From: Candidatus Woesearchaeota archaeon | Lineage (GTDB): Archaea; Nanobdellota; Nanobdellia; SCGC-AAA011-G17; JACPNG01 | Assembly: GCA_017609525.1 (NCBI GenBank) | Contig: JAFCDT010000002.1 | Span: forward strand, 4,885 to 68,884 | Length of the DNA stretch: 64,000 bases | Reading direction: 5' to 3' | In this document: piece after piece, positions 41,708 through 63,380 of the stretch | Numbering within the stretch: the first letter of the stretch is position 1 | How the letters are laid out: every line of letters starts with the position of its first letter | Made by a program: the position numbers and the translations under genes | The notes under the pieces: model-generated | The model's input: the letters and a program-made list of their open reading frames with translations, nothing else | Database searches by the model: none | Told to the model about the DNA's origin: nothing

Positions 41708-42943
41708 TTGATGTTGGATTATTATTCTAGGCCAGATATTCAGGAAGAGATTTTTATAGCTTCTAGACACAGGGAAATTGGGGTGATGTATAAAGACAGG
41801 GGTTTTGGTAAAAGGCCAGATATCTTACAATTTAAAAGTGATGTAGGAGAGTTCGCTAAACAAGGGGCAAGTTCTTTTCATATTTCATTGGAAAGGTGGA
41901 AAAATCCTTTAGAGTTAAAGTCTGGTATGTCTAAAAAAGAGTTAGATGGCTTAAGAGAGGGGTGGGATTTTATAGCTGACATAGATTGTAAATATTTTGA
42001 ATTTTCAAAGATTGCTGCTTTTCTTTTAATTGAAGCTCTAAGATTTCACGAAATTGAGAATATAAGCTTAAAGTTTTCTGGGAATCGCTCTTTTCATGTT
42101 GGTGTTGCATTTGAAACCTTTCCTAAAGTGGTAAATAATATACAAATAAAGGATATTTTTCCACAAGGAGTTAGAATTATTGCTGATTACTTAAAATCAA
42201 TGATCAAAAATGAATTAAGGGAAAGAATATTAAAAATAAGTCCTGAAATGGGAGAAAATTTCGATCCTTTTTCAATCGTTGATATTGATTCTGTGGCTAT
42301 TTCAAGCAGGCATATGATTCGAGCACCTTATTCACTAAATGAAAAATCTGGATTGGTTAGTTTGCCCATAAAGATTGAGGAGTTAAAAAATTTTGAACTT
42401 AAACAGGCAAGAGTAGAAAATGTTAAAACCAAAGTCAGGTTTCTTGATAAAGGTGAACCAAATGAGGCTTCTAACCTACTTGTACAAGCTTTTGATTGGA
42501 ATATGAAAGCTAAAAGGAATGAGCCAGAAGTAATTGTTAAAAAAAGAGAATACGAAATTCCTAGCGTAGCGATTAAAGAAGAATTTTTTCCTCCATGTAT
42601 AAAACAAATATTAAATGGAATAGAAAAAGATGGAAGAAAACGGGCAGTATTTATTTTAATTAATTTTTTAGGACAAATGGGATGGGATTATAATGCTATA
42701 AAAAAGATTTTGTTAGAATGGAACAAGAAGAACTATGAAGAATTAAAAGAAGGGTATATTTTAAGTCAACTAAGCTGGCATAAAAGACAGGGTAAAAAAA
42801 TTTTGCCGCCTAATTGTGACAATAAGTCATACTACTTTGATATAGGTGTGAAGTGCGATGACCCCTTATGTAAAAAAGTGAAGAATCCTGTTAATTATGC
42901 CATGAGAAAGGTGAGCTTTAAAAAAAATATTAGGAAGAGATAG
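41708..42943 (+). CDS. priS: DNA primase small (catalytic) subunit PriS
   Basis: DFIADIDCKY (DxD), SGNRSFHVGV, RAPYSLNEKSGLVSLPI. C-terminal Cys cluster CDNKSYYFDIGVKCDDPLC. Confidence 0.7.
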   Translation: MMLDYYSRPDIQEEIFIASRHREIGVMYKDRGFGKRPDILQFKSDVGEFAKQGASSFHISLERWKNPLELKSGMSKKELDGLREGWDFIADIDCKYFEFSKIAAFLLIEALRFHEIENISLKFSGNRSFHVGVAFETFPKVVNNIQIKDIFPQGVRIIADYLKSMIKNELRERILKISPEMGENFDPFSIVDIDSVAISSRHMIRAPYSLNEKSGLVSLPIKIEELKNFELKQARVENVKTKVRFLDKGEPNEASNLLVQAFDWNMKAKRNEPEVIVKKREYEIPSVAIKEEFFPPCIKQILNGIEKDGRKRAVFILINFLGQMGWDYNAIKKILLEWNKKNYEELKEGYILSQLSWHKRQGKKILPPNCDNKSYYFDIGVKCDDPLCKKVKNPVNYAMRKVSFKKNIRKR

Positions 42944-47748: not shown

Positions 47749-47932
47749 AATGAAAAGTAAAAAGATTATTCTTATTTTAATTATTTTAGTGATTATTTTG
47801 GGTATTGGTTATATGATAATTAGTTTTAATGATTGGGAAAAAGAGGATATGGTTAAAGGAGACATAGTAAAAAATAACCTTGGAGAGGGTGGAGGGTATA
47901 GAATCCAAATCTTAGAAAAGGGGGCTGGTTGA
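47749..47932 (+). CDS. small single-TM protein heading the surface locus
   Basis: MKSKKIILILIILVIILGIGYMII then a Gly-rich tail. 4-nt overlap with the next gene. The start could also be 47723. Confidence 0.3.
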
Positions 47933-50851: not shown

Positions 50852-52657
50852 GTGATGATTGGCTCAAACAATGATTTTTCTGGATGGGGAAATCAGATAG
50901 ATGGAATGGATACAGATAATTCTGGTAGTTATTCTAGTTTATATTTAAATTACAGGGGTGGAAAGAAAATCATTTTAACAAATTCGAGTGATGGTAATGT
51001 AGGTATAGGAACAACAAATCCTAGTTATAAATTAGAAGTAAATTCTGTAGATAGTGCATTAAATGTAAGTGGAAATTTGTATGTTAATTCTAGTAATGTT
51101 GGTATAGGGTTTGACAATCCACAACATACCCTTCATATTGAAAACTCATCTGGAGATCTTGTAAGTGCAGTAAAGGTTACTGATGGAAGAAATAGTGTCT
51201 TTTTACAAGCAAGCAGAAGCGTGGGGGATGGGGGGGTTATAGGCACAAGATTGGTCTTGGATGATAATGGGGCGAGCGGTAAAAGATGGGATATTACTAC
51301 AGGAATTAAAGAGGGGGGTTTAGTATTTAGGAATAATGATGATGGAATTAACGCTTTGACATTAAATTCTTCTGGAGATGTAGGTATAGGAACAACAAGT
51401 CCAGATAGAAATTTAGAAGTATCAGGAACGGGAGCACAACAAATTGAAGTAGAATCTACATCAACCGACGCTGATTTAATTATTGATGCCAATACTGATT
51501 CAGATGCAAGAATTATTTTACAAGAAGCAGGAGTAAATTTAGGTTGGATAAGATTAGATGGAGATGATGGTAATAAAATAAAATTTCAGTATAGCACAAG
51601 TGCTACTGATGCAATGACTATCGACCAAACTGGAAAAATAGGTATAGGAACTGCTTTTCCTGGTGCTAAATTACATGTTTCTGAAACAAATAATTCTGCC
51701 TTTGATGCTGCAGTTGCTATTACTAGAACCGCCAGCGGAGGAGACTCTCTTGCATTCCTCAATATAGGTAGTAATTGGTACTTTGGAAGAGATAGTGCGG
51801 GAAACGCTTTTCAGGCTAGATACGCTAATTGGGACTTGACCGAAGACAGGTGGGAATCTACTTATACTGGTAGTATTGTGGGGCCTGTTTTTACCCAATA
51901 TGAGTACAATGGAGACATAAACTTTAAATCAATGGCTCCTCAATCCTTGACAGAAGGGGATGCTTTAAGTTTCGTAAATGTTATGACTTTGAAAGGGGGA
52001 GGAAATGTGGGTATAGTGACAACAAATCCACAGGCAAGATTAGAGGTTGATGATAATAATTATTGGTATAGTACAAAATATCCTGCGGTTGGTATTAAAA
52101 GCATAAGGCCTGCACTTGCTTTTTATGATGATAATTCAGAAGGTAAAAATGTAACAGTCCTTTATCAAGACCAGCAAACTTTCAAGATAGCTAAAACTGC
52201 ATTTACTACTAATGATTGGGGTTATGATGAGAAAATAGATGCATTAAAAATAGATTCAGACGCGAGCATAACATTTCCATATGTTTATTCTGATATTGTT
52301 GGTGGAACGAATAGAGATTTATATATAGACAATACAGGTTTGATAGGTTATGTTAGTTCTAGTATAAGATATAAAGAAAACATAAAAGATATTGGAAATG
52401 GTTCAGAAAAGCTTTATGATTTAAGACCCGTTTCCTTTAATTATAAAGGAGATAATTCCTCTAGCCTTCAATATGGTTTAATTGCTGAAGAAGTTGAAGA
52501 GGTTATGCCTGAGATAGTAAGCTATGATGAAGAAGGTAATCCAGAAACAGTAAGCTACAGTAAGCTAATAAGCCCAATGCTTAATGAGATCCAACAACTT
52601 AAGGAAGAGAATGAAGAATTAAAAAAGAGGATTGAAGTTTTAGAAAAAAAGATTTAG
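50852..52657 (+). CDS. tail-fibre-like repeat protein with a C-terminal intramolecular chaperone (peptidase S74-like) auto-processing domain
   Basis: NVGIGTTNP fibre repeats, then SSSIRYKENIKDIGNGSEKLYDLRPVSFNYKGDNSSSLQYGLIAEEVEEVMPEIVSYDEEGNPETVSYSKLISPMLNEIQQLKEENEELKKRIEVLEKKI. This matches the phage tail-spike/endosialidase C-terminal chaperone domain (Ser in S-x-R-x-K, LIAQEVEEV-like box, terminal coiled coil). No signal peptide of its own. Confidence 0.7.
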   Translation: MMIGSNNDFSGWGNQIDGMDTDNSGSYSSLYLNYRGGKKIILTNSSDGNVGIGTTNPSYKLEVNSVDSALNVSGNLYVNSSNVGIGFDNPQHTLHIENSSGDLVSAVKVTDGRNSVFLQASRSVGDGGVIGTRLVLDDNGASGKRWDITTGIKEGGLVFRNNDDGINALTLNSSGDVGIGTTSPDRNLEVSGTGAQQIEVESTSTDADLIIDANTDSDARIILQEAGVNLGWIRLDGDDGNKIKFQYSTSATDAMTIDQTGKIGIGTAFPGAKLHVSETNNSAFDAAVAITRTASGGDSLAFLNIGSNWYFGRDSAGNAFQARYANWDLTEDRWESTYTGSIVGPVFTQYEYNGDINFKSMAPQSLTEGDALSFVNVMTLKGGGNVGIVTTNPQARLEVDDNNYWYSTKYPAVGIKSIRPALAFYDDNSEGKNVTVLYQDQQTFKIAKTAFTTNDWGYDEKIDALKIDSDASITFPYVYSDIVGGTNRDLYIDNTGLIGYVSSSIRYKENIKDIGNGSEKLYDLRPVSFNYKGDNSSSLQYGLIAEEVEEVMPEIVSYDEEGNPETVSYSKLISPMLNEIQQLKEENEELKKRIEVLEKKI

Positions 52658-52762: not shown

Positions 52763-53248
52763 ATGGATAAATTAAATAAAAAAGAGGGAATTAGTTCTGA
52801 TAAAGACTTTGAAAAATTAAAAAAAATATTAAGCTCCTTAGAAATAAAGTATAAGAAAACTAAAAAAGAAATTCTCAATTTGATTGAAGAAATGGAAACA
52901 ATGCCTGTTTCAATCTTTAATAACACTAAGCTTTCCATACCAGAATCAATTGTTAAGTATTTTGTTGAAGAAAAAAATTACAAATATAGTAAGATTTCTA
53001 AGATCATCAAACGGGACCAAAGGACTGTTTGGGGCTTTTATAACAAAGCTAGGAAGAAATTTCCTAAAAAGTTGAAAATTAATGATTCTAAATTAATTCC
53101 TGTTTCAATTTTTAGTAAAAAAAGCTTGCTAGAAACTATTGCGATTTATCTTAAGAAAAATTTTGATTTAAGTTACCATGATGTTGCTGTTTTACTTAAT
53201 AGAGATGATAGAACGATTTGGACTGTTTGTAATAGGAAGAAAAAATGA
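52763..53248 (+). CDS. tandem helix-turn-helix DNA-binding protein (two sigma-r4/LuxR-like HTH units), candidate locus regulator
   Basis: Internal duplication: IPESIVKYFVEEKNYKYSKISKIIKRDQRTVWGFYNKARKKF and IPVSIFSKKSLLETIAIYLKKNFDLSYHDVAVLLNRDDRTIWTVCNRKKK. 4-nt overlap with the 1070-aa gene. Confidence 0.5.
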   Translation: MDKLNKKEGISSDKDFEKLKKILSSLEIKYKKTKKEILNLIEEMETMPVSIFNNTKLSIPESIVKYFVEEKNYKYSKISKIIKRDQRTVWGFYNKARKKFPKKLKINDSKLIPVSIFSKKSLLETIAIYLKKNFDLSYHDVAVLLNRDDRTIWTVCNRKKK

Positions 53249-56200
53249 ACGAAAGTATCAAGGCAATTATGATTAGTATAATGGTTTTCGTAGTGTTAAG
53301 TGGGCTAATTTATGGTGCCTTTATCTTTACGAGTTATACGGGTTTTGCTGTTAAGGAAATAGTAAGCATTCCTTATGAAGAAGGATTTGAAAATGGAACC
53401 ATAAAGGTAAGTTTAAATGAAACTATTTGGGAGTTTGAAGTTCAAGAACTTGTTAAAGATAAAGATATCATTTTGAATTTAACTAGTCTGGAAACTAATG
53501 AATATGGAGAATTATATATCGACATCATTGTTAATGGAACTGTTGTTGAAAGTAAAAAAGTGATTATTGAAGGAAAGGAAGAAAAACCTTTTGTTACAGA
53601 AGAAGTTAATGAGACAGTTGAAGAAAAATTTTCTGAAGCTAATAATAGTGCTTTTGGAGAAATAAATGTGTCTGTTGAGGAAATTAACAAAACTATTGGG
53701 CTGGTTAATAAGACAGTTGAAGAATCTGATAATGAGATTGTAAATCAAACAGAACCACTAAGAAAGATCAATAAAACCTTAGAAATAAATGAAACGGTTG
53801 AAGAAGTTAATATTACTCTACCAAAAAATATTACTGAAAATTTGAATGAATCTAAGGTAGTAGATAAAGTTTCTATTGTAGAAGAGACAGAAGAAGTAAT
53901 ACAACCTTTAGTTGTGATAAATCAGCCAGTTAGGTGGGTTAAAAAGGTTAGATTAGAGAATTATTCAAATAGTCTTACTGTTGAGGTTCCTAAAGAAGCA
54001 AAGAACATTAGTGTTAAAAAAATTGAAGATGGAAAGGGAAGAGCAATTGAAGAGAAAAAAATCAAGGTTAAAGAAAAAGGAGAAATTAAAGACTTAGAAG
54101 AATTTAATACAATAACTGCGCAGGCGGTCGCTGTTGGTTCTGGCAAACCTTATTTAAGAAACTTTTTCGACTTGATTTCGAAATTTATTAATTCTTTACT
54201 CAAAAAACCCGCAGTAACTGGATTAGTTACTGGTGAAGATAAAGGAACTAAAGAGGTTATTATTGGAGAGTCTGTTAAGGAAGTAGAAATCAAGTATGAA
54301 ATTCCTGGTCCAGGTGTAATAGAATCAGACAAGGCAGATGGTAAGATCATAACAATATTTTCTGAGATTCACTATGAGAATATATTAGCATATACAGAAG
54401 TAGAAGAAACGGATCCAGAGGGTATAAAACTTTACTGGAAACAAAATGGTTCTAGTATTTTGGTTGAAAATGTGGATTACCTAGATGAAAATCAAAATGG
54501 ATTGATAGATAAAATCCAGTGGATTGTTCCACATTTAAGCAATCAGACATATGAGATTGATTTAATTGTTTTAAATGTTCAGAGTTATCCTTATGTTGGG
54601 GGCAATTGGACAGTAAAATTTAACACTACCGGAATAGCAAATTTAACGATAAGTGCATTTAATGGTACTACTTTTGAAGATTATCATAATGATAGCGTGA
54701 TTCATGATTTAGAATTTTTAGAGTTAAGATGTGGCTCTGAATTAATTGCTAATAATCTTACTGCTAATAATAGTTTATTTGTTTCAGATTATAGTTGTAC
54801 AAGTACTAGCTTTGAAACAAGTAAAGTTTTAACACCAGGTGACCACTATATTAAATTTGAGTTTGGACCAATAACTAAATATGCAAAAAACCTTGCTGGT
54901 GAATTTGGAGGGTTGGCTGGAGGAGGAAATGCTAGTGGTACAATGAATTTAATTACCGGTGCCTTTGGTTTTACTGGTTCTAACGAAACAACTGGATCAT
55001 ATACCACTATGCTGCATGGACTACTGAGTGTAGGAAAAAACATAACTTCTGGCGTTTATACATTAGGTTTAGGTTATATTTACATGCTTGATATTGTTCA
55101 GAAGGTTTTTGTTAACCTTGTTAGCCCCGCAGAAGGGGAAACAATTGCTACTGCTACTTTTATTTATATTCCAAACGCTGATGAAATACACAGTTGTAGT
55201 TTGTATGGTAATTGGACCACTGGTTGGCATGCCAATCAAACTGATTATTCTATAGCATTAAGTTCCACTAACCAGTTTACACTAGGTGAATTAGAAGAAG
55301 GCAGGTTTCAGTGGAATGTTATGTGCAACAATAGCCAGGGGGATTTTTTTGCAGAAAACAATTATACTTTTGTACTAAACCGTGTACCAAGTGTGCCAGA
55401 CTTGAATGAACCTTTAAATAACAGCATGTGGAATAGTAGCATTCCTGAACTTAATTGGTCCAACAGCACAGATACAACAGGAGATGATATATTTTATTAT
55501 TTGGAAATTGATGATTCAATAGCTTTTGATAGTGTGGATTATGCAAATAGTACAATAAAAGAAAATGTAAATACAACATCGGATCTTCCTAGCGGACTAG
55601 TTGCAGGAAACTATTGGTGGAGGGTTTTAGCTTATGATGGCAACGCAAACTCTTCATGGTCAGAGGTAAGAAATTTATCAATAAGATTTAATGATGCTCC
55701 TAGTGTTCCTGAATTATTTTTGCCATATAACGATACACAAATAACAGATAGGACTCCTACTTTTAGCTGGAGCAATTCTACTGATCCAGATGGAGATACT
55801 ATCACATATCACATTCAAATAGATGGAGTTATAGACTTTTCAAGTCCTGAGGTGGATGGTTTTGATGTAGGGGGCATTGCTGAAACTGCAAATACAACAA
55901 ACTGGACTGCAACATCTGATTTGCAACAATTAGACACAGAGTACTTTTGGAGGGTTAGAGCGTATGATGGAATTGCTTATAGCAATTGGTCTGAAATAAG
56001 GAATTTTTCGATTGCCAGTACAGTGATTATCACTCTTCCAACAGACAGCATAAACTTTACTGTTGCTAATCCAGGGGATAGTGACGACACTAGTGATGAT
56101 TCCCCTACTCCGATTGTAATAAGAAATAGCGGAAATACTGGTGCTGATGTTAATATCAGTTTGGCCTCTGGGAGCACTGGTCTTTGGGCAAGCAAAGTAA

Positions 56201-56457
56201 GTCCTACGAGTTATTTTCAATATAAAATAGATAATAAGACAGGAGAGGAGGGGGCTTTTAACTGGTCGGATTCTATTACTGGATGGACCGATGTTGATGT
56301 TGCTAACTCAAGTTACAAAATTAGAAATCTTAACTATAGTGATTCTACTGATGAAGCAGAGTTAGACATTAAAATTATTGTGCCAAATGATGAACCTTCT
56401 GGGGAAAAGTCGGCAAGTTTGGTTATAACGGGGGCGATTACAAGTGAAATCCCATAA
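53245..56457 (+). CDS. 1070-aa signal-anchored glycoprotein with many N-x-S/T sequons, tandem repeats of about 95 aa (FSWSNSTDPDGD...YFWRVRAYDG) and a conserved C-terminal EPSGEK...TG motif
   Basis: N-terminal TM MISIMVFVVLSGLIYGAFIF. More than 50 N-x-S/T sequons. Three clear repeats (NWSNSTDTTGDDIFYYLEID...YWWRVLAYDG; FSWSNSTDPDGDTITYHIQID...YFWRVRAYDG; plus a degenerate copy). C-terminus IVPNDEPSGEKSASLVITGAITSEIP. Confidence 0.65.
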   Translation: MNESIKAIMISIMVFVVLSGLIYGAFIFTSYTGFAVKEIVSIPYEEGFENGTIKVSLNETIWEFEVQELVKDKDIILNLTSLETNEYGELYIDIIVNGTVVESKKVIIEGKEEKPFVTEEVNETVEEKFSEANNSAFGEINVSVEEINKTIGLVNKTVEESDNEIVNQTEPLRKINKTLEINETVEEVNITLPKNITENLNESKVVDKVSIVEETEEVIQPLVVINQPVRWVKKVRLENYSNSLTVEVPKEAKNISVKKIEDGKGRAIEEKKIKVKEKGEIKDLEEFNTITAQAVAVGSGKPYLRNFFDLISKFINSLLKKPAVTGLVTGEDKGTKEVIIGESVKEVEIKYEIPGPGVIESDKADGKIITIFSEIHYENILAYTEVEETDPEGIKLYWKQNGSSILVENVDYLDENQNGLIDKIQWIVPHLSNQTYEIDLIVLNVQSYPYVGGNWTVKFNTTGIANLTISAFNGTTFEDYHNDSVIHDLEFLELRCGSELIANNLTANNSLFVSDYSCTSTSFETSKVLTPGDHYIKFEFGPITKYAKNLAGEFGGLAGGGNASGTMNLITGAFGFTGSNETTGSYTTMLHGLLSVGKNITSGVYTLGLGYIYMLDIVQKVFVNLVSPAEGETIATATFIYIPNADEIHSCSLYGNWTTGWHANQTDYSIALSSTNQFTLGELEEGRFQWNVMCNNSQGDFFAENNYTFVLNRVPSVPDLNEPLNNSMWNSSIPELNWSNSTDTTGDDIFYYLEIDDSIAFDSVDYANSTIKENVNTTSDLPSGLVAGNYWWRVLAYDGNANSSWSEVRNLSIRFNDAPSVPELFLPYNDTQITDRTPTFSWSNSTDPDGDTITYHIQIDGVIDFSSPEVDGFDVGGIAETANTTNWTATSDLQQLDTEYFWRVRAYDGIAYSNWSEIRNFSIASTVIITLPTDSINFTVANPGDSDDTSDDSPTPIVIRNSGNTGADVNISLASGSTGLWASKVSPTSYFQYKIDNKTGEEGAFNWSDSITGWTDVDVANSSYKIRNLNYSDSTDEAELDIKIIVPNDEPSGEKSASLVITGAITSEIP

Positions 56458-56926
56458 ATGGTTTGTGATCCTGAATATCGCGTTTGTGATTTTAATAGTT
56501 GGAACAATCTTTTATATCACTCCAAGGGGGCCGGAAGGAAAAATCTACGATCGGCGTCCCTTGTTTAGTTGGACTGGTTATGCAACTAAATTGATAATCG
56601 ATGATAATCCGGATTTTTCCAGTCCGCAAGTCATTGACCTAAAAGGAAGAGATTATCAATTTAAAGAAAATCTTGATTTGGGGGATTATTTCTGGAAATT
56701 AAAGGGGCTTTATGAAACCAAACCCAAGAAATTTAATTTAGAGTCTGAGGTGGCAATAAAACTGTACAAGACTGAATCTTTGAATCTAGAAAACGATGGC
56801 AATACTCGACTGAATGTTACTATTGAAGAACATGATTCTGGGGTGACTGGTCAGATTGTTCTTGATTTGGGGGAAATTGCTGTTGTGAAAGAAAATTCGG
56901 ACATTAAAGCAAAGCAAGATGAATAA
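56444..56926 (+). CDS. single-domain membrane-anchored paralog carrying one copy of the FSW...YFWK repeat
   Basis: TM FVILNIAFVILIVGTIFYI, then RPLFSWTGYATKLIIDDNPDFSSPQVIDL...LGDYFWKLKG. Confidence 0.5.
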   Translation: MKSHKWFVILNIAFVILIVGTIFYITPRGPEGKIYDRRPLFSWTGYATKLIIDDNPDFSSPQVIDLKGRDYQFKENLDLGDYFWKLKGLYETKPKKFNLESEVAIKLYKTESLNLENDGNTRLNVTIEEHDSGVTGQIVLDLGEIAVVKENSDIKAKQDE

Positions 56927-58118
56927 GAAATTATGGTTGGGAATTGTAGCAATTTTGATAGTTTCAAGTATCAATGTTTTTGCAATAGGAATTAGTCCAG
57001 GTAAAACAATTTTAGATTTTTCGCCAAACACCCAACAAGACATTGTATTCAGGGTGCTAAATAATGAAAAAAAAGAGATGGATGTTTTGTTATATGTGGG
57101 AGAAAGTGAATTAAGTGATATTGTTACCCTCTATGATTCTATTATTAGCTTTAAATCTGAAGAAGAAAGTAAAGAATTCAGATACACTGTGAATTTTCCT
57201 GACAAAATTGACACTCCCGGAGATCATGAAATACAAATTATTGCTTTAGAGATTCCCAAAGGTACAAAAGGAAATAATTTTGTTGGTGCTACTGCTGCTG
57301 TTGCAACCATCCTAAAAGTCAGGGTCCCATATCCTGGAAAATATGCGAAAATTGAATTAGCGGTTTCTGATGCTAAAGTCGGAGAAGAAATGACTTTTGT
57401 TGTTCCTGTCTGGAATCTGGGAACAGATGATATTATTAATGCCCAAGCAAGTATTGATATCTTGGGGCCTACTAATGAAAAAATTGCTACGCTTAGTACA
57501 GAAAAAAAAGGGATTAAATCCAAAAGCAAGAGCGAATTAGTTGCAAAATGGGAAGCAGATACAAATGCCGGCAAGTATTTTGCTGTGGCTACTTTAACAT
57601 ATGATGGAAAAACTGCAAGGGCTGAAAAAATTTTTGCCTTAGGTGATCTGTTTATTGATATTATTGATATTAATGTTAAAAACTTTAATTTGGGTGAAGT
57701 AGCTAAATTTAATATTTTAGTTGAAAATAAATGGAATGATTTAATCACAAATATTGTTCCAGAAATTAAGATTAGTGATAAGAATGGCAATGAAGTTGCT
57801 GTATTTAAAGGAGCAGGAGCGGATGTAGATGCTTTAAGTAAAGCAGAATTAAATGCATATTGGGATACTGAAGGAGTTAAAGAAGGAGTTTATGATGGTA
57901 AAGCAATTTTGCATTATTCTGGAAAGACTACAGAAAAACAACTTAAAACAGATATTAGTTTAAATGGAATTAAGGTTTCATTTTTGGGACAGACCGCTCA
58001 AGTTGTTAGGGGAGGAGCAGGTGTTGGAAGGAACTCTGTATTAGTGATTTTAGTTATGATCTTAATTATTATAAATGTGGGTTGGTTTATATATATCAAA
58101 AGGATGAAAAGAGGATAG
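56919..58118 (+). CDS. CARDB-like surface protein with signal peptide and C-terminal TM plus KRMKRG tail (paralog of 59008-60129)
   Basis: Signal WLGIVAILIVSSINVFA. Repeated Ig-like units starting PYPGKYAKIELAVSDAKVGEEMTFVVPVWNLG. C-terminal VLVILVMILIIINVGWFIYIKRMKRG. Confidence 0.55.
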   Translation: MNKKLWLGIVAILIVSSINVFAIGISPGKTILDFSPNTQQDIVFRVLNNEKKEMDVLLYVGESELSDIVTLYDSIISFKSEEESKEFRYTVNFPDKIDTPGDHEIQIIALEIPKGTKGNNFVGATAAVATILKVRVPYPGKYAKIELAVSDAKVGEEMTFVVPVWNLGTDDIINAQASIDILGPTNEKIATLSTEKKGIKSKSKSELVAKWEADTNAGKYFAVATLTYDGKTARAEKIFALGDLFIDIIDINVKNFNLGEVAKFNILVENKWNDLITNIVPEIKISDKNGNEVAVFKGAGADVDALSKAELNAYWDTEGVKEGVYDGKAILHYSGKTTEKQLKTDISLNGIKVSFLGQTAQVVRGGAGVGRNSVLVILVMILIIINVGWFIYIKRMKRG

Positions 58119-58156
58119 AAAAACTTAAAAATATTGAATATCAGATAGGATACAGA

Positions 58157-58369
58157 ATGGTCAAAAAAAGGGGCAAAAAAAAGGTTTCTAAAAATTTGTT
58201 AGCCATACTTTTAGTTATTGCAATTTTGTTATCTGTTGTAGGGACCTATATGGCTATTTACAATGCCAATGTTGTAAGGGTAATTGAGATTGAGCCCGCT
58301 TCCTTGGGAAAGGTCGGGGTTTATGTTAACAATCCAGAACTCCCCGCAGGAGATGAAGGTGGCGGATAA
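58157..58369 (+). CDS. small N-terminally anchored protein (pilin-like candidate)
   Basis: MVKKRGKKKVSKNLLAILLVIAILLSVVGTYMAI: basic N-terminus plus one hydrophobic helix, 70 aa. The six-frame ORF 58082-58369 extends it upstream of the likely start. Confidence 0.35.
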   Translation: MVKKRGKKKVSKNLLAILLVIAILLSVVGTYMAIYNANVVRVIEIEPASLGKVGVYVNNPELPAGDEGGG

Positions 58370-58979
58370 AAAAGAAGTTTCCAATGGGGTCTTAGTAGCT
58401 TTAGCTGGAATTGCCATAATTGTTTCTTTAGTAGGCATACTTACAATGATTGGTAAGCCAATGCCAATTCTTGGTGCTGTTGTGGGTACTGTAAATGTTA
58501 CCATAAATGAAAGTGTTGGTATAAGTTTGGTTACTGAAAGTATTAACTTTACAACTTCAGGTATAAACGATGTGAAAGACACGACGACTGCGACAGATGT
58601 TCAGGGTTGTAGTGCTGCTCCTTGTGGATTCAATATCACAAACGATGGGAGCATCAATATCAACATTAGTATAGATGTAACCTCGGATATGTTTGTAAGC
58701 TCTAGTACAAATGCTAGTTCATTTATGTGTAATGCTACTAACTTTGATTCAAATAGTAATGCCTCTGCACAAGGGTGGACAGGAGATTGCACATACGCAG
58801 AATGGGTAGACTGCAGAGATGGTCAGGCAGTTGAAACTGGCAATTGTTTTGCTGATATTAATTTTACAGATGGTGCTGATACTGTTTACTTAGAGGTACA
58901 AATCGCGGTTCCAGATGCAGAACCTTCTGGGGATAAGCAGGCATCAATTACATTTACTGGAACTAGTGCTGGAACTTAA
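58353..58979 (+). CDS. N-terminally anchored secreted protein with sequons, a Cys pattern and the C-terminal EPSGDK...TG motif (pilin-like or adhesin subunit candidate)
   Basis: Start at ATG 58353 (MKVADKKEVSNGVLVALAGIAIIVSLVG). Ectodomain with 6 Cys and multiple N-x-T/S. C-terminus IAVPDAEPSGDKQASITFTGTSAGT is shared with the 1070-aa protein. Confidence 0.5.
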   Translation: MKVADKKEVSNGVLVALAGIAIIVSLVGILTMIGKPMPILGAVVGTVNVTINESVGISLVTESINFTTSGINDVKDTTTATDVQGCSAAPCGFNITNDGSININISIDVTSDMFVSSSTNASSFMCNATNFDSNSNASAQGWTGDCTYAEWVDCRDGQAVETGNCFADINFTDGADTVYLEVQIAVPDAEPSGDKQASITFTGTSAGT

Positions 58980-59007: not shown

Positions 59008-60129
59008 TTGTTTAAAGTTCTTATGAAAAGGGGTTTTTTATTTGTGTTATTCTTTTTGTTTTTGGCTAATTCTGTTTTTGCTATTCTAATCACTCCTGCT
59101 AGTTTGGAGATGGAATTTGCTCCGAACAAAGAGTATGATTGTAGTTTTATTGTTAGAGTAAATAAACAAACCGACTTACTGGTATATGCCCGTGGAGAGC
59201 TAAATCAAAGTGTGAGTTTTTCTAAGAATAAACTAAAAGCTGTTCCTGGTGAATGGAATAGTGTGGGGTGCAAAATAAAAATGCCTCAGGATATGAAACC
59301 AGGGTTAAACAAAAATTTTGTTGGAGTTGTAGAAGATACTAGTGGCAAGGGGGTTGTTGGAGGTGTGACTGGCGTGGAGGTCACATTATTTATAAGAAAA
59401 CCTTACCCTGGGAAATACTTAGAATTAGAGAAATTTGAAGCCAATAATGCAGAAATAAATGAAAAAGTTAATTTTTTAATTGAGGTTATTAATAGGGGAA
59501 AAGAAAAAATAAACAATGCCTTTGCATTGATAGAAGTGTATGATAAAGATAAAAAAATTGATCAGGTTGAATCAAATCATATTGAGATTGTTAGTAATGG
59601 TGTTTTTAAAGCAGAATGGAAAACAAGTGTGGCGGGAAGATATAAAGCTTTGGCAAGAATAAATTATGATGGCTCTATTTTAGAAGAAAAAAAGAATTTT
59701 AATGTAGGAGAGCGTTTAGCTAAGATTCTAAATATTTCTGATGCAAAGGTAAAAAAAGGAGACATTGCTAAATTTGATATCAATATTCAAAGTTATTGGA
59801 ATGAAATAATAAAAGATGTCTACTTAGAGTTAAAGGTGGTTGGGCAAGAGGTGAATTCTAGGACAGAGTCCATATCCTTGGGTCCTTGGGACAGTAGGAC
59901 CATTACTGGTTTCTTGGAGACTTCTTCGCTAGAAGAAGGGGAATATGAAGTTGATGTTACTTTAAATTATGATGATAAATATTCAGAAGCTAAAACGAGT
60001 TTGGTGGTAACAAAGGGGTTTAGTCTCTCTGTGACTACAATTGTTCTAATCGTAATTATAGCTATCCTTATCTTGCTGGTTATTATTAATATTGTTATGT
60101 TTAAGAAAAAATGGAAAAAAAGAAAGTAA
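59008..60129 (+). CDS. CARDB-like surface protein, paralog of 56919-58118, with C-terminal TM plus KKKWKKRK
   Basis: Signal FLFVLFFLFLANSVFA. PYPGKYLELEKFEANNAEINEKVNFLIEVINRG unit. C-terminal TIVLIVIIAILILLVIINIVMFKKKWKKRK. Confidence 0.55.
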   Translation: MFKVLMKRGFLFVLFFLFLANSVFAILITPASLEMEFAPNKEYDCSFIVRVNKQTDLLVYARGELNQSVSFSKNKLKAVPGEWNSVGCKIKMPQDMKPGLNKNFVGVVEDTSGKGVVGGVTGVEVTLFIRKPYPGKYLELEKFEANNAEINEKVNFLIEVINRGKEKINNAFALIEVYDKDKKIDQVESNHIEIVSNGVFKAEWKTSVAGRYKALARINYDGSILEEKKNFNVGERLAKILNISDAKVKKGDIAKFDINIQSYWNEIIKDVYLELKVVGQEVNSRTESISLGPWDSRTITGFLETSSLEEGEYEVDVTLNYDDKYSEAKTSLVVTKGFSLSVTTIVLIVIIAILILLVIINIVMFKKKWKKRK

Positions 60130-60524
60130 TCTTCTTATTTAGTGGAATTGCTATTGTCATCTTTTTCCTATTTATCTTTTTTTATAATTTCTTTTTTGTT
60201 CTGGGCGTGAAAAACATTGATTTTTCTATTAAAGTAGGAGATACAATTGGATTAAATGTTGATACTGACAAATTGTATTTTGGTACTGTTCCAAGAGGGG
60301 GAACAGCTGATAGGGGCATCCTAGTAAAAAACGAAGAACATTCCTTGGTTAAAACTAATATAAAAGTGCAGAGCGATATTAAAGACTGGCTGTATGTTAA
60401 TAACAATAATTTCTTTTTAAAAAAAGATGAGAAAAAAGATATTAATTTTAAGGTTAAGGTGCCTTTGGATGCTGAATATGGGGAATATGATGGACAGATA
60501 ATCCTTATTTTTACCCGGTTCTAG
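60111..60524 (+). CDS. small signal-anchored beta-rich protein
   Basis: TM VIFLFSGIAIVIFFLFIFFYNFFFVL then a 100-aa domain. 19-nt overlap with the preceding gene. Confidence 0.45.
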   Translation: MEKKKVIFLFSGIAIVIFFLFIFFYNFFFVLGVKNIDFSIKVGDTIGLNVDTDKLYFGTVPRGGTADRGILVKNEEHSLVKTNIKVQSDIKDWLYVNNNNFFLKKDEKKDINFKVKVPLDAEYGEYDGQIILIFTRF

Positions 60525-60563: not shown

Positions 60564-62321
60564 ATGAAAGAGGTTCCAGATAAGTTACTGTTATTTTTAT
60601 ACATAACTTTTATTTTCACATTTCTAATTGGTTTGATATTAATTGTTACTAATGCTCCTCTATTTTTAAGTATAATCACTGGAAAAGTTGCAAGTACTGG
60701 TTTGGTTGGTTTATGTGTGGGTGTTACTCCTGCCATAAGCAGCATAGGGTATCAGGAAGGTTTTGTTGATACAGAATTTTATTATGATGTTGAAGCTTCT
60801 GCCGGAGATGATCCTATAAGTTTTAGTGATGATAGTGATTTGTTTGTTATTGATGCAGACAGCGGGGAAATCAATTTTACTCCAAGTTCTACAGATAAAG
60901 GCAACTATTCGATAACTATCACAGTAACCAACACTATTTGTGCTGACGGGGGTCCAACTGCTGAGGAAGTGTTTACACTTGAAATTAAGTCTGAACCACC
61001 TGTTTTGGATCCCATAGGAAATCAGACACTTACAGAAGATGTGGCTTATTACTATGATGTCAATGCTTCTGATCCTGACCCCGGAGATAATGCAAGCTTA
61101 GTATTTTTAGATGACACTGGTTTGTTTGATATTAATGAAAGCACTGGAATTATTAGTTTTACTCCTGTAAATGATGATGTGGGGGTTCATGAAGTTAGAA
61201 TAACTGTTACTGATCCTAGCGGAGCTTCTGATTTCGAAGACCTTAATTTTACTGTGGAGAATGTAAATGATGCTCCTGTATTAGATGAGATCCCTAATTT
61301 TACTGTTGCTGATGCAATAAGTGAAGATGTTGAATTCTACTATGATGTAAATGCAACTGACATAGATGTTGGTGATATTTTGAGGTATACTGATAATACT
61401 CCGCTATTTGTGATTGGTGAAACTTTTGGAATAATACAGTGGACACCAAGCAATGCGCAAATTGGTAATTATTCAATAACGATTTATGTTGATGATGGTG
61501 AAGCATTAGACTCTCAGGTGTTTAATGTTGAAGTGCTGGCAGTTGATGATCGTCCAATCTTAGAACCAATTGGTGCCCAGACTGCTGATGTAAATGTTAG
61601 TTTCTTTTTGGATGTTGAAGCTTCTGATGAAGAAGATGGGGATGAGTCAACTGGAAATCTTACATTTAGTGACAATACTACTTTGTTTAATATTAGTTCT
61701 AGCAATGGACAAATAAACTTTACTCCTACAGATAGTGATATTGGCACATATAATATAAATATAAGTGTTAATGATTCTACTGGCCAGGTTAGTTCTGAAG
61801 TGATATCTTTTACTGTGGCAGTAATTAATGATGCTCCAACTATTGATTCTTATGTTCCAACTGATTTAACTCCTTCAGTAGATGAAGGTGATACTTTATT
61901 CTTCAATATAACAATGTCTGATCCTGATGGGTCTGATCCTGATGGAACAACCCCGAGTGTCCAGTGGTATTTAGATGCGGCCGCTATAAGTGGAGAAACC
62001 AACATGCATTATAATTATAATCCTAATTTTGACTCACAAGGGACACATAATATGACTGTAATCATTACAGATGGATCTTTATATGACTCTGTGGAATGGA
62101 TAGTAACTGTAAATAATGTGGTACAGGTTGATAAAGGTCCTTCTGGTGGAGGGGGTGGTGGAGGAAGCAAGGGTTGTAGTGAAAGGTGGAATTGTAGTGA
62201 TTGGAGTCCTTGTCAGTATCCTGGAATACAAATCAGAACATGCAGTGATATGAAAAATTGTGGTACAACCCGATTTAAGCCTGGCGAGAGAAAACGGTGT
62301 GAATTTTTGATGGAATATTAA
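60564..62321 (+). CDS. cadherin-like repeat surface protein (N-terminal 585 aa; frame-broken from its CGG-x-C/TM C-terminus)
   Basis: Signal-anchor, at least five cadherin-like units with YYYDVxAxD...NDAP(V/T)(L/I) boundaries, a Gly7 linker, and a Cys-rich CSERWNCSDWSPCQYPGIQIRTCSDMKNCG knot. Stops 2 codons after a T5 run. Confidence 0.6.
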   Translation: MKEVPDKLLLFLYITFIFTFLIGLILIVTNAPLFLSIITGKVASTGLVGLCVGVTPAISSIGYQEGFVDTEFYYDVEASAGDDPISFSDDSDLFVIDADSGEINFTPSSTDKGNYSITITVTNTICADGGPTAEEVFTLEIKSEPPVLDPIGNQTLTEDVAYYYDVNASDPDPGDNASLVFLDDTGLFDINESTGIISFTPVNDDVGVHEVRITVTDPSGASDFEDLNFTVENVNDAPVLDEIPNFTVADAISEDVEFYYDVNATDIDVGDILRYTDNTPLFVIGETFGIIQWTPSNAQIGNYSITIYVDDGEALDSQVFNVEVLAVDDRPILEPIGAQTADVNVSFFLDVEASDEEDGDESTGNLTFSDNTTLFNISSSNGQINFTPTDSDIGTYNINISVNDSTGQVSSEVISFTVAVINDAPTIDSYVPTDLTPSVDEGDTLFFNITMSDPDGSDPDGTTPSVQWYLDAAAISGETNMHYNYNPNFDSQGTHNMTVIITDGSLYDSVEWIVTVNNVVQVDKGPSGGGGGGGSKGCSERWNCSDWSPCQYPGIQIRTCSDMKNCGTTRFKPGERKRCEFLMEY

Positions 62322-62335
62322 ACCAAGATGAAATT

Positions 62336-62833
62336 TTGGTAGATTGTGGTGGAGTTTGTAAAGCTTGTCCTACTTGTGATGATGGAATTAAAAATCAAGG
62401 AGAGGTGGAGATAGATTGCGGTGGACCATGTCCTGGTTGTCCTAAAACAGAAAAACCCTCTAGATTGGTTACAATTTTATGTGGAAATGGTCAAATAGAC
62501 AGAGTTGGTGAGATATTTACATGCTTCAAGGATAGTTGGTATATCTGGTTAATTGTCTTGGTTGTCATTTTATTACTCTTATTAAGAAAAAGAATAAAGA
62601 AAGCTAAGAAATCTTTAGAATTTACAAACCTAGATAGAGAGAGGATTGGTAGGATAAAAAGATTGATTAAGGTTGCTGATCTGGCCTTGAGAGAAAAGCA
62701 AATCAGTAAACTAAAAGTTACTTGCGATAGAATTGAGATTCTATACAATGGTTTACAAAGTGAGAGAAGCAAGAGAAAAGTCTATAGAAAGATTAAGAAA
62801 CTTAATAATAGGATAAATAATTTTAAATCTTAG
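62336..62833 (+). CDS. C-terminal module: tandem DCGG-x-C cysteine knot, TM and a coiled-coil cytoplasmic tail. Very likely the continuation of 60564-62321 after a single-nucleotide frame error
   Basis: The reading frame is open from 62303 (IFDGILNQDEILVDCGGVCKACPTCDDGIKNQGEVEIDCGGPCPGCPK...) with no start codon until the TTG at 62336. A +1 shift in TTTTT (62304-62308) fuses it to the upstream ORF. TM IWLIVLVVILLLLL plus a basic tail. Confidence 0.5.
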   Translation: MVDCGGVCKACPTCDDGIKNQGEVEIDCGGPCPGCPKTEKPSRLVTILCGNGQIDRVGEIFTCFKDSWYIWLIVLVVILLLLLRKRIKKAKKSLEFTNLDRERIGRIKRLIKVADLALREKQISKLKVTCDRIEILYNGLQSERSKRKVYRKIKKLNNRINNFKS

Positions 62834-62906
62834 AAATCTTTATAAGTTAGTTATACTACATTTTTCTCAGTTATTTTATTTGTTATACTACAAAAAGAGG
62901 GATTTG

Positions 62907-63380
62907 ATGGTTCATAAGAGGTATATTAAAAAAGGGGGCAAAGTGTATGGTCCTTATTTCTATAAAACAGTAAGAGATAAGGACGGAAGCGTTAAAAATA
63001 TATATCTTGGAAGCGTTGAAAAAGAAAAAAAAAGTGTAGTACAACCAAAATATCTCTATGTTTTTTTAAGTTTATTCTTAATGGTTTTAGTTTTAGCTGG
63101 TTTTTATTTTAGTGAATATACAGGAAATGTTGTAAGGTTAGGAGAAATCTCTTTACCTGATTTTAAAAGCCAAAATTTAAGCAGGGGTGATTTTTTTTCT
63201 GCTAAAGTTGTTTCTGATTTGAGAGCGGCTTATTTTACAGATGATAGTGATCTCTTTAACATTAGTTCAGATGGATTTATTGAGTTTAGAGCGGAAGAAA
63301 GAGGAGAATATCCTGTGGCCATAATTGCCAAATCTGAAGAAGGATTTGAGTATCAGATTGTTAAATTTTTAATAAAATGA
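62907..63380 (+). CDS. small signal-anchored protein with a cadherin-like N-terminal unit
   Basis: Likely start MVHKRYIKKGGKVYGPYFY at 62907. TM YLYVFLSLFLMVLVLAGFYF. YFTDDSDLFNISSDGFIEF resembles the start of the neighbouring cadherin-like units. Confidence 0.4.
   Translation: MVHKRYIKKGGKVYGPYFYKTVRDKDGSVKNIYLGSVEKEKKSVVQPKYLYVFLSLFLMVLVLAGFYFSEYTGNVVRLGEISLPDFKSQNLSRGDFFSAKVVSDLRAAYFTDDSDLFNISSDGFIEFRAEERGEYPVAIIAKSEEGFEYQIVKFLIK

What the first reader, a model, noticed from the sequence alone, without database searches (positions are those of the whole stretch)
56250..58979. Shared C-terminal motif VP-[DN]-x-EPSG-[DE]-K-x-AS-[LI]-x-[FI]-TG on two otherwise unrelated surface proteins
The 1070-aa glycoprotein ends ...IVPNDEPSGEKSASLVITGAITSEIP. 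The 208-aa protein at 58353-58979 ends ...IAVPDAEPSGDKQASITFTGTSAGT. The motif sits in the last 25 residues and is not followed by a TM or a PGF-CTERM-like hydrophobic stretch. It therefore resembles a novel C-terminal sorting, processing or lipid/glycan-attachment tag, or an inter-subunit docking strand (for example donor-strand-like).
Basis: seen in the sequence. Interest (0 to 1): 0.6.

Follow-up and report, generated by a model that had tools for sequence, protein, structure and literature searches.

The report
C-terminal docking domain of DPANN surface proteins
The shared "tag" is the conserved last loop and strand of an unannotated ~150-residue domain that sits at the very end of hundreds of surface proteins of tiny DPANN archaea, and it is always encoded next to the same membrane-anchored partner proteins, so it is most likely a pilus-like docking or assembly module and not a sorting signal.

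Summary
The motif is real: both copies lie in the last 25 residues, and they are the only two EPSG[DE]K matches in six frames. But the two proteins are not "otherwise unrelated". They share a ~150-aa C-terminal domain (BLASTP E 4e-8). A profile of that domain finds 663 cluster representatives. In 151 of the 153 sequences examined the domain ends within 5 aa of the C-terminus, in one copy, in proteins of 132-4376 aa. Every member that carries a taxon name is a DPANN archaeon. Pfam and NCBIfam have no model for the domain.

The motif is its last loop, P(.99)-x-D-E(.97)-P-x-G(.96)-x-K/R(.97), plus the final beta-strand. AF2 (pLDDT 84) gives an Ig-like sandwich. Its best PDB matches are weak but consistently donor-strand-exchange pilins.

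All 10 loci examined encode the same partners: a ~65-aa membrane-anchor-plus-strand protein that mimics the pilin-like protein's N-terminus, a ~375-aa protein of Ig-like domains with a C-terminal TM, and a ~137-aa PapD/ASH-like protein. No protease or sortase is present.

Best reading: a pilin-like docking domain held or polymerised by beta-strand complementation. The layout parallels chaperone-usher pili and Firmicute WxL clusters. The mechanism is inferred, not shown.

The parts
53245..56457 (+). Large (1070-aa) surface protein: N-terminal anchor, a long sequon-rich region, fn3-like domains and the C-terminal CTD
   Evidence: ORF. Ig_Rha78A_N/fn3 hits at residues 829-923. CTD profile hit E 4e-50.
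56002..56454 (+). CTD domain of the large protein (residues ~920-1070)
   Evidence: BLASTP alignment with the 208-aa protein, E 4e-8; alignment A1.
56380..56433 (+). Motif copy 1, VPNDEPSGEKSASLVITG: conserved loop plus last beta-strand
56444..56926 (+). 160-aa protein: N-terminal TM, fn3-like domain and a truncated N-terminal half of a CTD
   Evidence: Alignment A6 with L001 4055-4558 and with both CTDs; weak CTD-profile hit E 3e-5.
56919..58118 (+). C-family partner, paralog 1 (399 aa): signal peptide, Ig-like domains, C-terminal TM
   Evidence: Alignment A3. Weak DUF11/CARDB hits. Across the family, 6/8 members hit WxLIP_HBD and 6/8 hit CARDB.
58157..58369 (+). Tiny protein (70 aa): N-terminal anchor plus the 'LGKVGVYV' strand. 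It is homologous to the N-terminal module of the stand-alone CTD protein and overlaps the next gene by 17 nt.
   Evidence: Alignment A5. CTD-profile positions 1-50 hit it at E ~6e-5. Joint alignment.
58353..58979 (+). Stand-alone CTD protein (208 aa): anchor helix 11-33, unstructured linker containing 'GTVNVTI', beta-sandwich 57-205
   Evidence: AF2 model with pLDDT 84; close homologs P0001 and P0002.
58908..58961 (+). Motif copy 2, VPDAEPSGDKQASITFTG: loop 186-197 plus last strand 198-205
59008..60129 (+). C-family partner, paralog 2 (373 aa): signal peptide, PapD/ASH-like first domain, CARDB-like domain, WxLIP_HBD-like domain, C-terminal TM
60111..60524 (+). D-family partner (137 aa): N-terminal TM plus one ASH/PapD-like Ig domain. 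It ends in VPLDAEYGEYDGQIILIFTRF.
   Evidence: Alignment A4. ASH hits in 4/5 members. hhalign to the first domain of the C family gives 95.5% probability, E 1e-8.
60564..62321 (+). 585-aa He_PIG/Big_9/PKD/cadherin-like surface protein. It is a syntenic neighbour without a CTD, and its membership of the system is uncertain.
   Evidence: Pfam hits. The same neighbour is present in L001 and L010.

Best explanation
The motif is the terminal loop, P-x-[DN]-E-P-x-G-x-K, plus the last beta-strand, [ST]-[ILV]-x-F-T-[AG], of a previously unannotated ~150-residue Ig-like beta-sandwich domain. I call it the CTD. It occupies the extreme C-terminus of DPANN-archaeal surface proteins.

The CTD comes in two architectures. 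One is a ~200-aa stand-alone subunit. The other is a large adhesin-like protein carrying LamG, beta-helix, FG-GAP or fn3-like modules, with the CTD last.

I propose that the CTD is a pilin-type docking and assembly domain held by beta-strand complementation. In this model the stand-alone subunits carry an N-terminal 'TG-x-V-x-V-x-V' strand. That strand is released by cleavage at, or exposed beyond, a conserved [ILV]-[TS]-G site and inserts next to the last strand of a neighbouring CTD, so the subunits polymerise. The large proteins, which have no free N-terminal strand, are tip adhesins or cargo. The ~65-aa protein consists only of the anchor plus that strand, and it anchors or terminates the assembly at the membrane. 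The two membrane-tethered PapD/ASH-like proteins (C and D) act as chaperone or platform.

Shown: the domain family, its strict terminal position, the motif conservation, the fold class and the conserved operon. Inferred: strand insertion, polymerisation and the role of each partner.
For: 1. Shared domain: BLASTP E 4e-8.
2. Family size: 663 representatives at E<=1e-3 and 102 at E<=1e-10.
3. Position: in 151/153 sequences the domain ends within 5 aa of the C-terminus, with a single significant copy, in proteins of 132-4376 aa.
4. Motif conservation: P .99, E .97, G .96 and K/R .97 are the most conserved columns across 189 sequences.
5. Structure: AF2 pLDDT 84. The motif maps to strand 177-185, loop 186-197 and the last strand 198-205. 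The N-terminal 'GTVNVTI' segment is unpaired.
6. Fold neighbours: the Foldseek PDB top hits are donor-strand-exchange pilins, namely TLP-1a (prob .98), CupE, Csu, FimA, PapA and CfaB. In TLP-1 the donor strand inserts between beta2 and the last strand, and AF2 leaves that N-terminal strand disordered in the monomer (PMC11494351).
7. Operon: CTD genes lie beside C, D and tiny-protein genes in all 10 loci, including loci not used to build the models (L008-L011).
8. Tiny protein: it aligns with the anchor-plus-strand module of the stand-alone subunit.
9. Tandem stand-alone paralogs, as with major and minor pilins: three in L007 and five in L011.
10. Large members carry LamG, beta-helix or FG-GAP adhesin modules, and 85/89 have an fn3-like domain directly before the CTD.
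11. D and the first domain of C are homologous ASH/PapD-like Ig domains.
Against: - The fold matches are weak (E 2e-3 to 0.5, TM 0.3-0.5). I could not inspect coordinates, so an open acceptor groove is not demonstrated.
- hhalign links the first half of the CTD to complete ASH-type Ig domains (76% probability), so the sandwich may be self-sufficient.
- No complex prediction could be run.
- Cleavage of the N-terminal anchor is unproven. Its hydrophobic segment is long (19-23 aa). If it is retained, the geometry of the model changes.
- One member (L005 4897-5718) carries a 70-aa Cys-rich tail after the CTD, so a free C-terminus right after the last strand is not obligatory.
- The PapD-like and WxLIP-like assignments of C and D are all below Pfam gathering thresholds.
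Confidence: 0.42

Rival explanations
1. A WxL-like static surface complex with no polymer. The CTD of one small and one large protein docks non-covalently onto the membrane-anchored C-family protein, an analogue of WxLIP. That protein, or the tiny protein, inserts a strand or hairpin to complete the CTD sandwich and so displays the adhesin modules on the cell.
For: The gene logic is the same as in Firmicute WxL clusters: a small protein that is only the domain, a large protein with the domain always C-terminal, and an Ig-Ig-TM protein. AF2 predicts that a WxLIP strand completes the WxL sandwich (PMC10599100 and PMC9772566). In 6/8 C-family members the last Ig domain before the TM hits WxLIP_HBD (best E 1.9e-4). 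In the window and in L001 and L010 each CTD gene is paired with its own C paralog.
Against: None of 58 members hits Pfam WxL, and the dual WxL motif is absent. The WxLIP hits are below threshold, and CARDB scores as well or better. hhalign between the CTD and the C family finds nothing. Archaea have no peptidoglycan. Tandem arrays of three to five stand-alone paralogs fit a fibre better than a 1:1:1 complex.
Confidence: 0.25
2. A distal ligand- or host-binding tip domain. The N-terminal anchors are not cleaved, so the CTD is the membrane-distal end of each protein, and its invariant acidic/basic loop (E...K) is a binding site for host envelope or glycan.
For: The N-terminal hydrophobic segments are long (19-23 aa) and unlike the classical signal peptide of the C family. 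The loop, not the core strands, is the most conserved part of the domain. DPANN archaea are episymbionts that need host-binding tips, and filamentous links are seen at contact sites (bioRxiv 10.1101/2023.10.27.564410).
Against: This reading does not explain the tiny anchor-plus-strand protein, the two membrane-tethered PapD-like partners, or the tandem stand-alone paralogs. A binding domain conserved across Woese-, Pace-, Nano- and Aenigmarchaeota, which have different hosts, would be expected to vary at its binding loop rather than be invariant there.
Confidence: 0.13
3. The stand-alone proteins are archaeal type IV pilin- or archaellin-like subunits, with an N-terminal hydrophobic helix and an Ig-like head, assembled by a type IV filament machinery encoded elsewhere.
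For: AF2 gives an N-terminal helix plus a beta-sandwich. A few members have K-G directly before the conserved ISNN segment (P0026, P0047, P0018). DPANN archaea commonly make type IV filaments.
Against: Most members lack a [KR]-[GA] site. A ~20-aa unstructured linker separates the helix from the sandwich. No archaeal pilin or archaellin appears in the Foldseek top 50. The same domain ends proteins of up to 4376 aa. None of the 10 loci encodes a type IV filament ATPase, platform protein or peptidase.
Confidence: 0.07
4. A C-terminal sorting, processing or lipid/glycan-attachment signal recognised by a dedicated enzyme.
For: The location is strictly terminal and the sequence is conserved.
Against: The motif is a confidently folded hairpin inside a domain. 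There is no hydrophobic or basic tail, and the residues after the last strand vary. No conserved sortase or protease lies nearby. One member has a 70-aa extension after the domain.
Confidence: 0.03

Closest known systems
WxL domain / WxLIP (DUF916-DUF3324) clusters of Lactobacillales and Bacillales (Csc clusters)
   Same: The cluster holds a small protein that is essentially only the domain, a large adhesin with the domain always at the C-terminus, and a protein of Ig-like domains with a C-terminal TM. The large proteins carry beta-helix and Ig-like adhesin modules. In WxL clusters AF2 predicts that a strand from the membrane protein completes the incomplete WxL sandwich (PMC10599100, PMC9772566).
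   Different: There is no sequence match to Pfam WxL and no dual Trp-x-Leu motif. The host is archaeal and lacks peptidoglycan. The partners differ: a tiny anchor-plus-strand protein and a single-domain PapD/ASH-like protein are present, and there is no LPxTG protein. Similarity of the C family to WxLIP_HBD is below threshold only.
Chaperone-usher pili (Fim, Pap, and the archaic Csu and CupE types)
   Same: These are the best solved-structure matches to the AF2 model. From my own knowledge of Pap/Fim biology: all subunits, including the two-domain tip adhesin, end in a pilin domain whose conserved C-terminal strand lines the donor-strand groove; minor and major subunits are paralogs in one operon; and the chaperones are PapD-like Ig proteins.
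   Different: There is no outer membrane and no usher gene. The putative chaperones are membrane-tethered, with one or three Ig-like domains instead of the soluble two-domain PapD. No Pfam Fimbrial or SCPU match was found. Groove incompleteness is not demonstrated.
Archaeal donor-strand filaments (Sulfolobus threads Saci_0406/0405, bundling pili AbpA, cannulae) and the environmental TLP-1 fibril
   Same: Archaeal and environmental precedents exist for chaperone-free donor-strand complementation by an N-terminal strand that follows a Sec signal, with heavy N-glycosylation. Threads have a putative cap subunit that donates a strand but cannot accept one (PMC9715654), which is conceptually like the tiny protein here. 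TLP-1a is the top Foldseek hit (PMC11494351).
   Different: Threads, AbpA and cannulae are not among the top 50 structural matches, and none of 58 members hits any Pfam model. Those systems have no large adhesins ending in the subunit domain and no membrane-tethered Ig partners.
ASH / PapD-like / CARDB-type prokaryotic Ig domains
   Same: The pattern '...V-P-x-D-x-E-x-G-x-[YK]-x-[GAS]-x-[IL]-x-[IF]' as the final hairpin is shared with the D-family protein of this cluster. hhalign between the CTD and the D family gives 76% probability over the first half of the domain.
   Different: Those domains occur internally and in tandem. The CTD is single-copy and strictly terminal, with an invariant P/E/G/K loop.

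Membership tests
WxL domain (Pfam PF13731) / WxL cluster | Two conserved Trp-x-Leu motifs in a 160-190-aa domain, and a match to the Pfam WxL model | tested here: not met
   No WxL hit in 58 members at E<=1. There is only one moderately conserved Trp (.72), and the last strand is [ILV]-x-F-T with no WxL.
WxL domain (Pfam PF13731) / WxL cluster | The domain is always C-terminal and occurs in a small (domain-only) and a large (adhesin) form | tested here: met
   151/153 terminal. 63 proteins are <=240 aa and 38 are >600 aa. Adhesin modules are present in the large forms.
WxL domain (Pfam PF13731) / WxL cluster | Clustered with a WxLIP protein (DUF916 + DUF3324 + C-terminal TM) | tested here: inconclusive
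   A protein of Ig-like domains with a C-terminal TM is adjacent in the clusters. WxLIP_HBD hits occur in 6/8 members but below the gathering score (best E 1.9e-4). WxLIP_PGBD is hit only once, at E 0.068, by the D-family protein.
WxL domain (Pfam PF13731) / WxL cluster | Binds peptidoglycan of Firmicutes | not testable with these tools
   The host is an archaeon (S4e, L32e, L19e and MCM). All named members are DPANN archaea.
Chaperone-usher pilins | Incomplete Ig fold lacking the G strand, with an open groove beside the C-terminal F strand | tested here: inconclusive
Chaperone-usher pilins | N-terminal extension with alternating hydrophobic residues that acts as donor strand | tested here: inconclusive
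   A conserved 'G-x-V-N-V-T-I' segment follows the [ILV]-[TS]-G site in stand-alone members (50/58) and is unpaired in the AF2 model. The tiny protein carries the same strand. Insertion was not tested.
Chaperone-usher pilins | Outer-membrane usher and soluble two-domain PapD chaperone in the operon; match to Pfam Fimbrial or SCPU | tested here: not met
   No usher-sized beta-barrel gene is present. The partners are membrane-tethered ASH/PapD-like proteins. No Fimbrial or SCPU hit was found.
Archaeal donor-strand filaments (threads, TasA-like AbpA) | Sequence or fold match to Saci_0406 or to TasA/Peptidase_M73 | tested here: not met
   No Pfam hit. None of these structures appears in the Foldseek top 50. 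The profile search against PDB sequences found nothing significant.
C-terminal sorting signals (PGF-CTERM/archaeosortase, LPXTG, PEP-CTERM) | A short motif followed by a hydrophobic helix and a basic tail, with a cognate sortase encoded in the genome or neighbourhood | tested here: not met
   The tail after the motif is 0-6 variable polar residues. No such enzyme is encoded in the 10 loci or in window flanks 40-64 kb.
Archaeal type IV pilins (class III signal peptide) | A [KR]-[GA] cleavage site directly before the hydrophobic helix, with the helix continuous with the globular head | tested here: not met
   Most N-termini read M-K-E-V-S-N-N with no Gly. A ~20-aa unstructured linker follows the helix. 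No pilin or archaellin structural hits were found.

The most novel reading that the evidence does not exclude
DPANN archaea (Woese-, Pace-, Nano- and Aenigmarchaeota) possess a previously unrecognised adhesin-display and pilus system built on donor-strand complementation and assisted by chaperones. In it, membrane-tethered PapD/ASH-like proteins replace the periplasmic chaperone and usher. A ~65-aa 'anchor-plus-donor-strand' protein terminates or anchors the fibre. Giant lectin and beta-helix adhesins are mounted through a universal C-terminal pilin domain. This would be the apparatus by which these episymbionts attach to their hosts. It would be either a convergent counterpart or a deep homolog of bacterial chaperone-usher and WxL systems.
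Probability: 0.3. Interest if true: 0.85.

Novelty: new variant of a known kind. Interest (0 to 1): 0.66.

Why it matters
How the ultra-small DPANN archaea hold on to their hosts is an open question. Their genomes are full of giant 'hypothetical' surface proteins.

This finding gives a single handle on many of them. There is one unannotated C-terminal domain with at least 663 50%-identity clusters, one nearly invariant loop, and one conserved four-gene partner set. It turns a list of orphan proteins into a testable assembly model with defined subunit, tip-adhesin, anchor and chaperone candidates.

If the strand-complementation model holds, the donor-strand principle extends to a third archaeal context, and to membrane-tethered chaperones in a cell without a periplasm. 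It would also supply a marker domain for finding DPANN adhesins in metagenomes.

Tried and rejected
- Word-indexed homolog searches found almost nothing: three close relatives for the 208-aa protein and none for the C-terminus of the 1070-aa protein. Only the exhaustive profile search found the family.
- AF2 on the 4-sequence alignment failed (pLDDT 35). The 58-sequence alignment worked.
- Profile searches of the CTD, C and D families against PDB sequences gave nothing significant. The CTD gave borderline CBM3 hits (E 3e-3), which I treat as chance because Foldseek did not support them. C and D both touched 2qsv weakly.
- Pfam and NCBIfam have no model for the CTD.
- hhalign between the CTD and the C family found nothing.
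- Sorting-signal, type IV pilin and chance explanations were considered and ranked low, for the reasons given under the rival explanations.
- I considered an isopeptide triad (invariant K, E and D at -12, -17 and -31). It cannot be tested without coordinates, so I make no claim.
- Literature searches found no description of this domain or operon in DPANN archaea.

Full report
**1. Observation**

ORF 53245-56457 (1070 aa) ends ...KIIVPNDEPSGEKSASLVITGAITSEIP. ORF 58353-58979 (208 aa) ends ...QIAVPDAEPSGDKQASITFTGTSAGT.

In the six-frame translation of the window, EPSG[DE]K occurs only at these two places. Both are 19-21 residues before a stop codon. No hydrophobic or basic segment follows either copy.

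The window comes from a low-GC (~33%) archaeon. It carries the ribosomal proteins S4e, L32e and L19e, an archaeal MCM and a fused PriS-PriL primase.

**2. The proteins are not otherwise unrelated**

BLASTP aligns the last ~155 residues of both proteins (26% identity, E 4e-8). The match begins at a shared '...ISL/ITL..(D/E)SINFT...' segment and ends at the motif. The motif is therefore the best-conserved end of a shared domain, which I call the CTD.

Pfam and NCBIfam have no model for it. Scanning 58 family members individually against Pfam gives no recurrent hit. In particular there is no hit to WxL, Fimbrial, SCPU or TasA.

**3. The family**

Word-indexed searches found only three close relatives. 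An exhaustive HMM search with the four-sequence domain alignment (A1) found 663 representatives of 50%-identity clusters at E<=1e-3, and 102 at E<=1e-10.

I re-mapped the domain on the 150 listed proteins plus the three close relatives:
- In 151 of 153 the domain envelope ends within 5 residues of the C-terminus.
- Each protein has only one significant copy.
- Protein lengths run from 132 to 4376 aa.

Every member that carries a taxon name is a DPANN archaeon or an unclassified 'archaeon': Woesearchaeota, Pacearchaeota, Nanoarchaeia/Nanoarchaeota and Aenigmarchaeota. Nearly all are annotated 'hypothetical'.

Column statistics over 189 sequences give the following pattern:
L(.84) N(.71) Y [ST] D ... 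D(.92) x A E [IV] D [IL] x [IV] x V(.84) P(.99) x D(.58) E(.97) P(.63) x G(.96) x K/R(.97) x [SA] T [ILV] x F(.69) T [AG], followed by 0-6 variable residues.
P, E, G and K are the most conserved positions of the whole domain.

I saw one exception to terminal placement. L005 4897-5718 carries a 70-aa Cys-rich tail after the CTD.

**4. Two architectures**

(a) Stand-alone proteins of about 200 aa. They have a conserved N-terminus (often K-[EQ]-[VI]-S-N-N), a 19-23-residue hydrophobic helix, an [ILV]-[TS]-G-A-A-x-G site about 27 residues after the start of the helix (50 of 58), then 'x-V-N-V-T-I' and the domain.

(b) Large proteins. In 85 of 89 the CTD directly follows an fn3-like 'YYWRVRAxDG...WS..WNFTI' domain. 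Their N-terminal parts carry LamG, right-handed beta-helix or FG-GAP modules.

The 'VNVTI' strand of the stand-alone form aligns with the last strand of that fn3-like domain. It is therefore a free strand only in the stand-alone form.

**5. Structure**

AF2 with a 58-sequence alignment (A2) gave mean pLDDT 84. The model has a helix at 11-33, an unstructured segment at 34-56 that contains GTVNVTINES, and a beta-sandwich at 57-205.

The motif maps onto strand 177-185 (...YLEVQIA), loop 186-197 (VPDAEPSGDKQA) and the last strand 198-205 (SITFTGTS). pLDDT there is about 95. The motif is thus a folded hairpin, not a flexible tag.

Foldseek against the PDB gave no strong hit. The list is nevertheless headed and dominated by donor-strand-exchange pilins:
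- TLP-1a (E 2e-3, prob .98)
- CupE
- Csu
- CfaB
- FimA (TM 0.54 on the target)
- PapA

In TLP-1 the N-terminal strand of another protomer inserts between beta2 and the last strand, and AF2 leaves that strand disordered in the monomer (PMC11494351). That matches what is seen here.

Two caveats apply. hhalign links the first half of the CTD to the D-family ASH-type Ig domain (76% probability, E 2e-5), so a complete sandwich is not excluded. I also could not inspect coordinates.

**6. Gene neighbourhood**

I examined ten independent loci: the window, L001, L003, L005, L006, L007, L008, L009, L010 and L011. A further JGI locus without DNA was also seen. In all of them CTD genes sit next to the same partners. 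Loci L008-L011 were not used to build the partner models, so they are independent confirmations.

The partners are:
- **Tiny protein (~60-75 aa).** It overlaps the start of the stand-alone CTD gene. It consists of the same N-terminal anchor plus a '[ST]-G-x-V-x-[VL]-x-V' strand and little else. The CTD profile hits it over positions 1-50 (E 3e-5 to 6e-5), and it aligns column for column with the pilin-like N-terminus.
- **C family (~370-400 aa).** It has a classical signal peptide, Ig-like domains and a C-terminal TM. Six of 8 members hit CARDB (best E 1.4e-5). Six of 8 hit WxLIP_HBD (best E 1.9e-4), in the window's 373-aa member at the last domain before the TM. All these hits are below Pfam thresholds.
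- **D family (~137 aa).** It has an N-terminal TM and one ASH/PapD-like Ig domain (4/5 members hit ASH, best E 2e-5). It is homologous to the first domain of C (hhalign 95.5% probability, E 1e-8).

Gene order in the window is: large CTD protein, 160-aa protein, C (399 aa), tiny protein, stand-alone CTD protein, C (373 aa), D, He_PIG/PKD protein. L001 and L010 have the same order.

Stand-alone CTD genes occur in tandem: three in L007 and five in L011.

No protease, sortase, type IV filament ATPase or platform gene is conserved in the neighbourhood. None is present in the window's flanks either.

**7. Interpretation**

What is shown:
- The motif is the terminal loop plus strand of an unannotated, DPANN-wide Ig-like domain.
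- The domain is single-copy and strictly C-terminal.
- It exists as a stand-alone subunit and as the last domain of adhesin-like giants.
- It is genetically coupled to three membrane-anchored partners.

What I infer is assembly by beta-strand complementation:
- The fold class and the best structural neighbours are donor-strand pilins.
- The stand-alone subunits have a conserved free N-terminal strand, and the large proteins do not.
- The tiny protein is that strand attached to a membrane anchor. It would be an anchor or terminator, conceptually like the thread cap Saci_0405, which donates a strand but cannot accept one (PMC9715654).
- C and D provide PapD/ASH-like domains tethered to the membrane. 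That is what a chaperone or platform would need in a cell without a periplasm.

From my own knowledge, not tested here: this mirrors the conserved C-termini shared by all Pap and Fim subunits, including the tip adhesin.

**8. Comparison with known systems**

By gene logic, the closest known system is the Firmicute WxL cluster. [quoted passage not shown] AF2 predicts that a WxLIP strand completes the WxL sandwich (PMC10599100, PMC9772566).

Membership in that family fails on sequence. There is no WxL model hit and no dual WxL motif, and the peptidoglycan-binding role does not apply to archaea.

Membership in the chaperone-usher pilins also fails, because there is no usher and no Pfam match. Membership in the known archaeal donor-strand filaments fails too, because there is no sequence or fold match.

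The system therefore 'works like' these families at most. It is not a member of any of them.

**9. Rivals**

The main rival is a static WxL-like complex without polymerisation. Next come a distal host-binding tip domain on N-terminally anchored proteins, a type IV pilin-like subunit, and a sorting or processing tag. The last two are disfavoured by tests run here. They are detailed in the rival explanations.

**10. Verdict**

Literature searches found no description of this domain or operon.

I rate it a new variant of a known kind, namely surface assemblies based on strand complementation, with interest about 0.66. The decisive work is complex structure prediction, which could not be run here, and experiments on a cultivated DPANN archaeon.

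Noticed in passing
window 50852-52657 (+), with 47929-50844 upstream: A 601-aa protein with repeated 'GIGTTxP' segments and a C-terminal Peptidase_S74 'chaperone of endosialidase' domain (E 3.5e-15). This is the self-cleaving trimerisation module of phage tail fibres, found here in an archaeal chromosome just upstream of the surface-protein cluster. It is preceded by a 971-aa ORF with no Pfam hit.
   Followed up: no
window 56444-56926 (+); L001 4055-4558: A 160-aa protein made of an N-terminal TM, one fn3-like 'FWKLKG' domain and only the N-terminal half of a CTD (ESEVAIKL...LNLENDGNTRLNVTIEE). It lacks the C-terminal half and the motif. It is conserved at the same position in L001. Its role is unknown; it could be a half-domain partner or a decoy.
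   Followed up: partly
window 53245-53360, 58353-58490, 60564-60700, 62880-63100; family-wide in P0007-P0143: Many secreted proteins here have a long N-terminal hydrophobic anchor followed ~27 residues later by [ILV/Y]-[TS]-G-[AFL] (SYTGFAV, ILGAVVG, IITGKVA, EYTGNVV). The site is present in 50/58 stand-alone CTD proteins. It fits the -3/-1 rule for signal peptidase I but lies unusually far from the helix, so it may be a lineage-specific processing motif.
   Followed up: partly
window 52763-53248 (+): A 161-aa protein with two internal repeats, each giving weak HTH / sigma-70 region-4-like hits (...RDQRTVWGFYNKARKK / ...RDDRTIWTVCNRKKK). It lies immediately upstream of the 1070-aa gene and is a candidate regulator of the cluster.
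   Followed up: no
window 60111-60524 (+): The D-family protein also ends, at its very C-terminus, with the same hairpin layout as the finding (VPLDAEYGEYDGQIILIFTRF*). This P-x-D-x-E-x-G-x-[YK] hairpin is a general end of the Ig-like domains in this cluster. Only the CTD version has the invariant E-P-x-G-x-K.
   Followed up: yes
L005 4897-5718; window 62336-62833 and the end of 60564-62321: Cys-rich modules occur in several places. One CTD protein carries a ~70-aa Cys-rich tail after the domain, the only non-terminal CTD seen. Similar Cys-rich segments end the 585-aa He_PIG/PKD protein and open the 165-aa ORF in the window.
   Followed up: no
CTD alignment columns -37..-35 and the domain start; window 58485-58560, 58860-58875: N-x-[ST] sequons are conserved at fixed positions of the CTD: N-[VF]-T just before the domain, I-N-F-T, and L-N-Y-[ST]-D. 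This suggests conserved N-glycosylation. The motif loop itself is sequon-free.
   Followed up: partly
L007 2882-4782; L011 552-5305; L005 4897-6579; L008 3256-4534: Stand-alone CTD genes occur as tandem paralog arrays: three, five, two and two copies respectively. This is as expected for major and minor subunits of one fibre, or for antigenic or variant sets.
   Followed up: partly
window 41708-42943 (+): A single 411-aa ORF hits both the small and the large subunit of DNA primase (a PriS-PriL fusion). This fits a DPANN/Nanoarchaeota-type genome.
   Followed up: no
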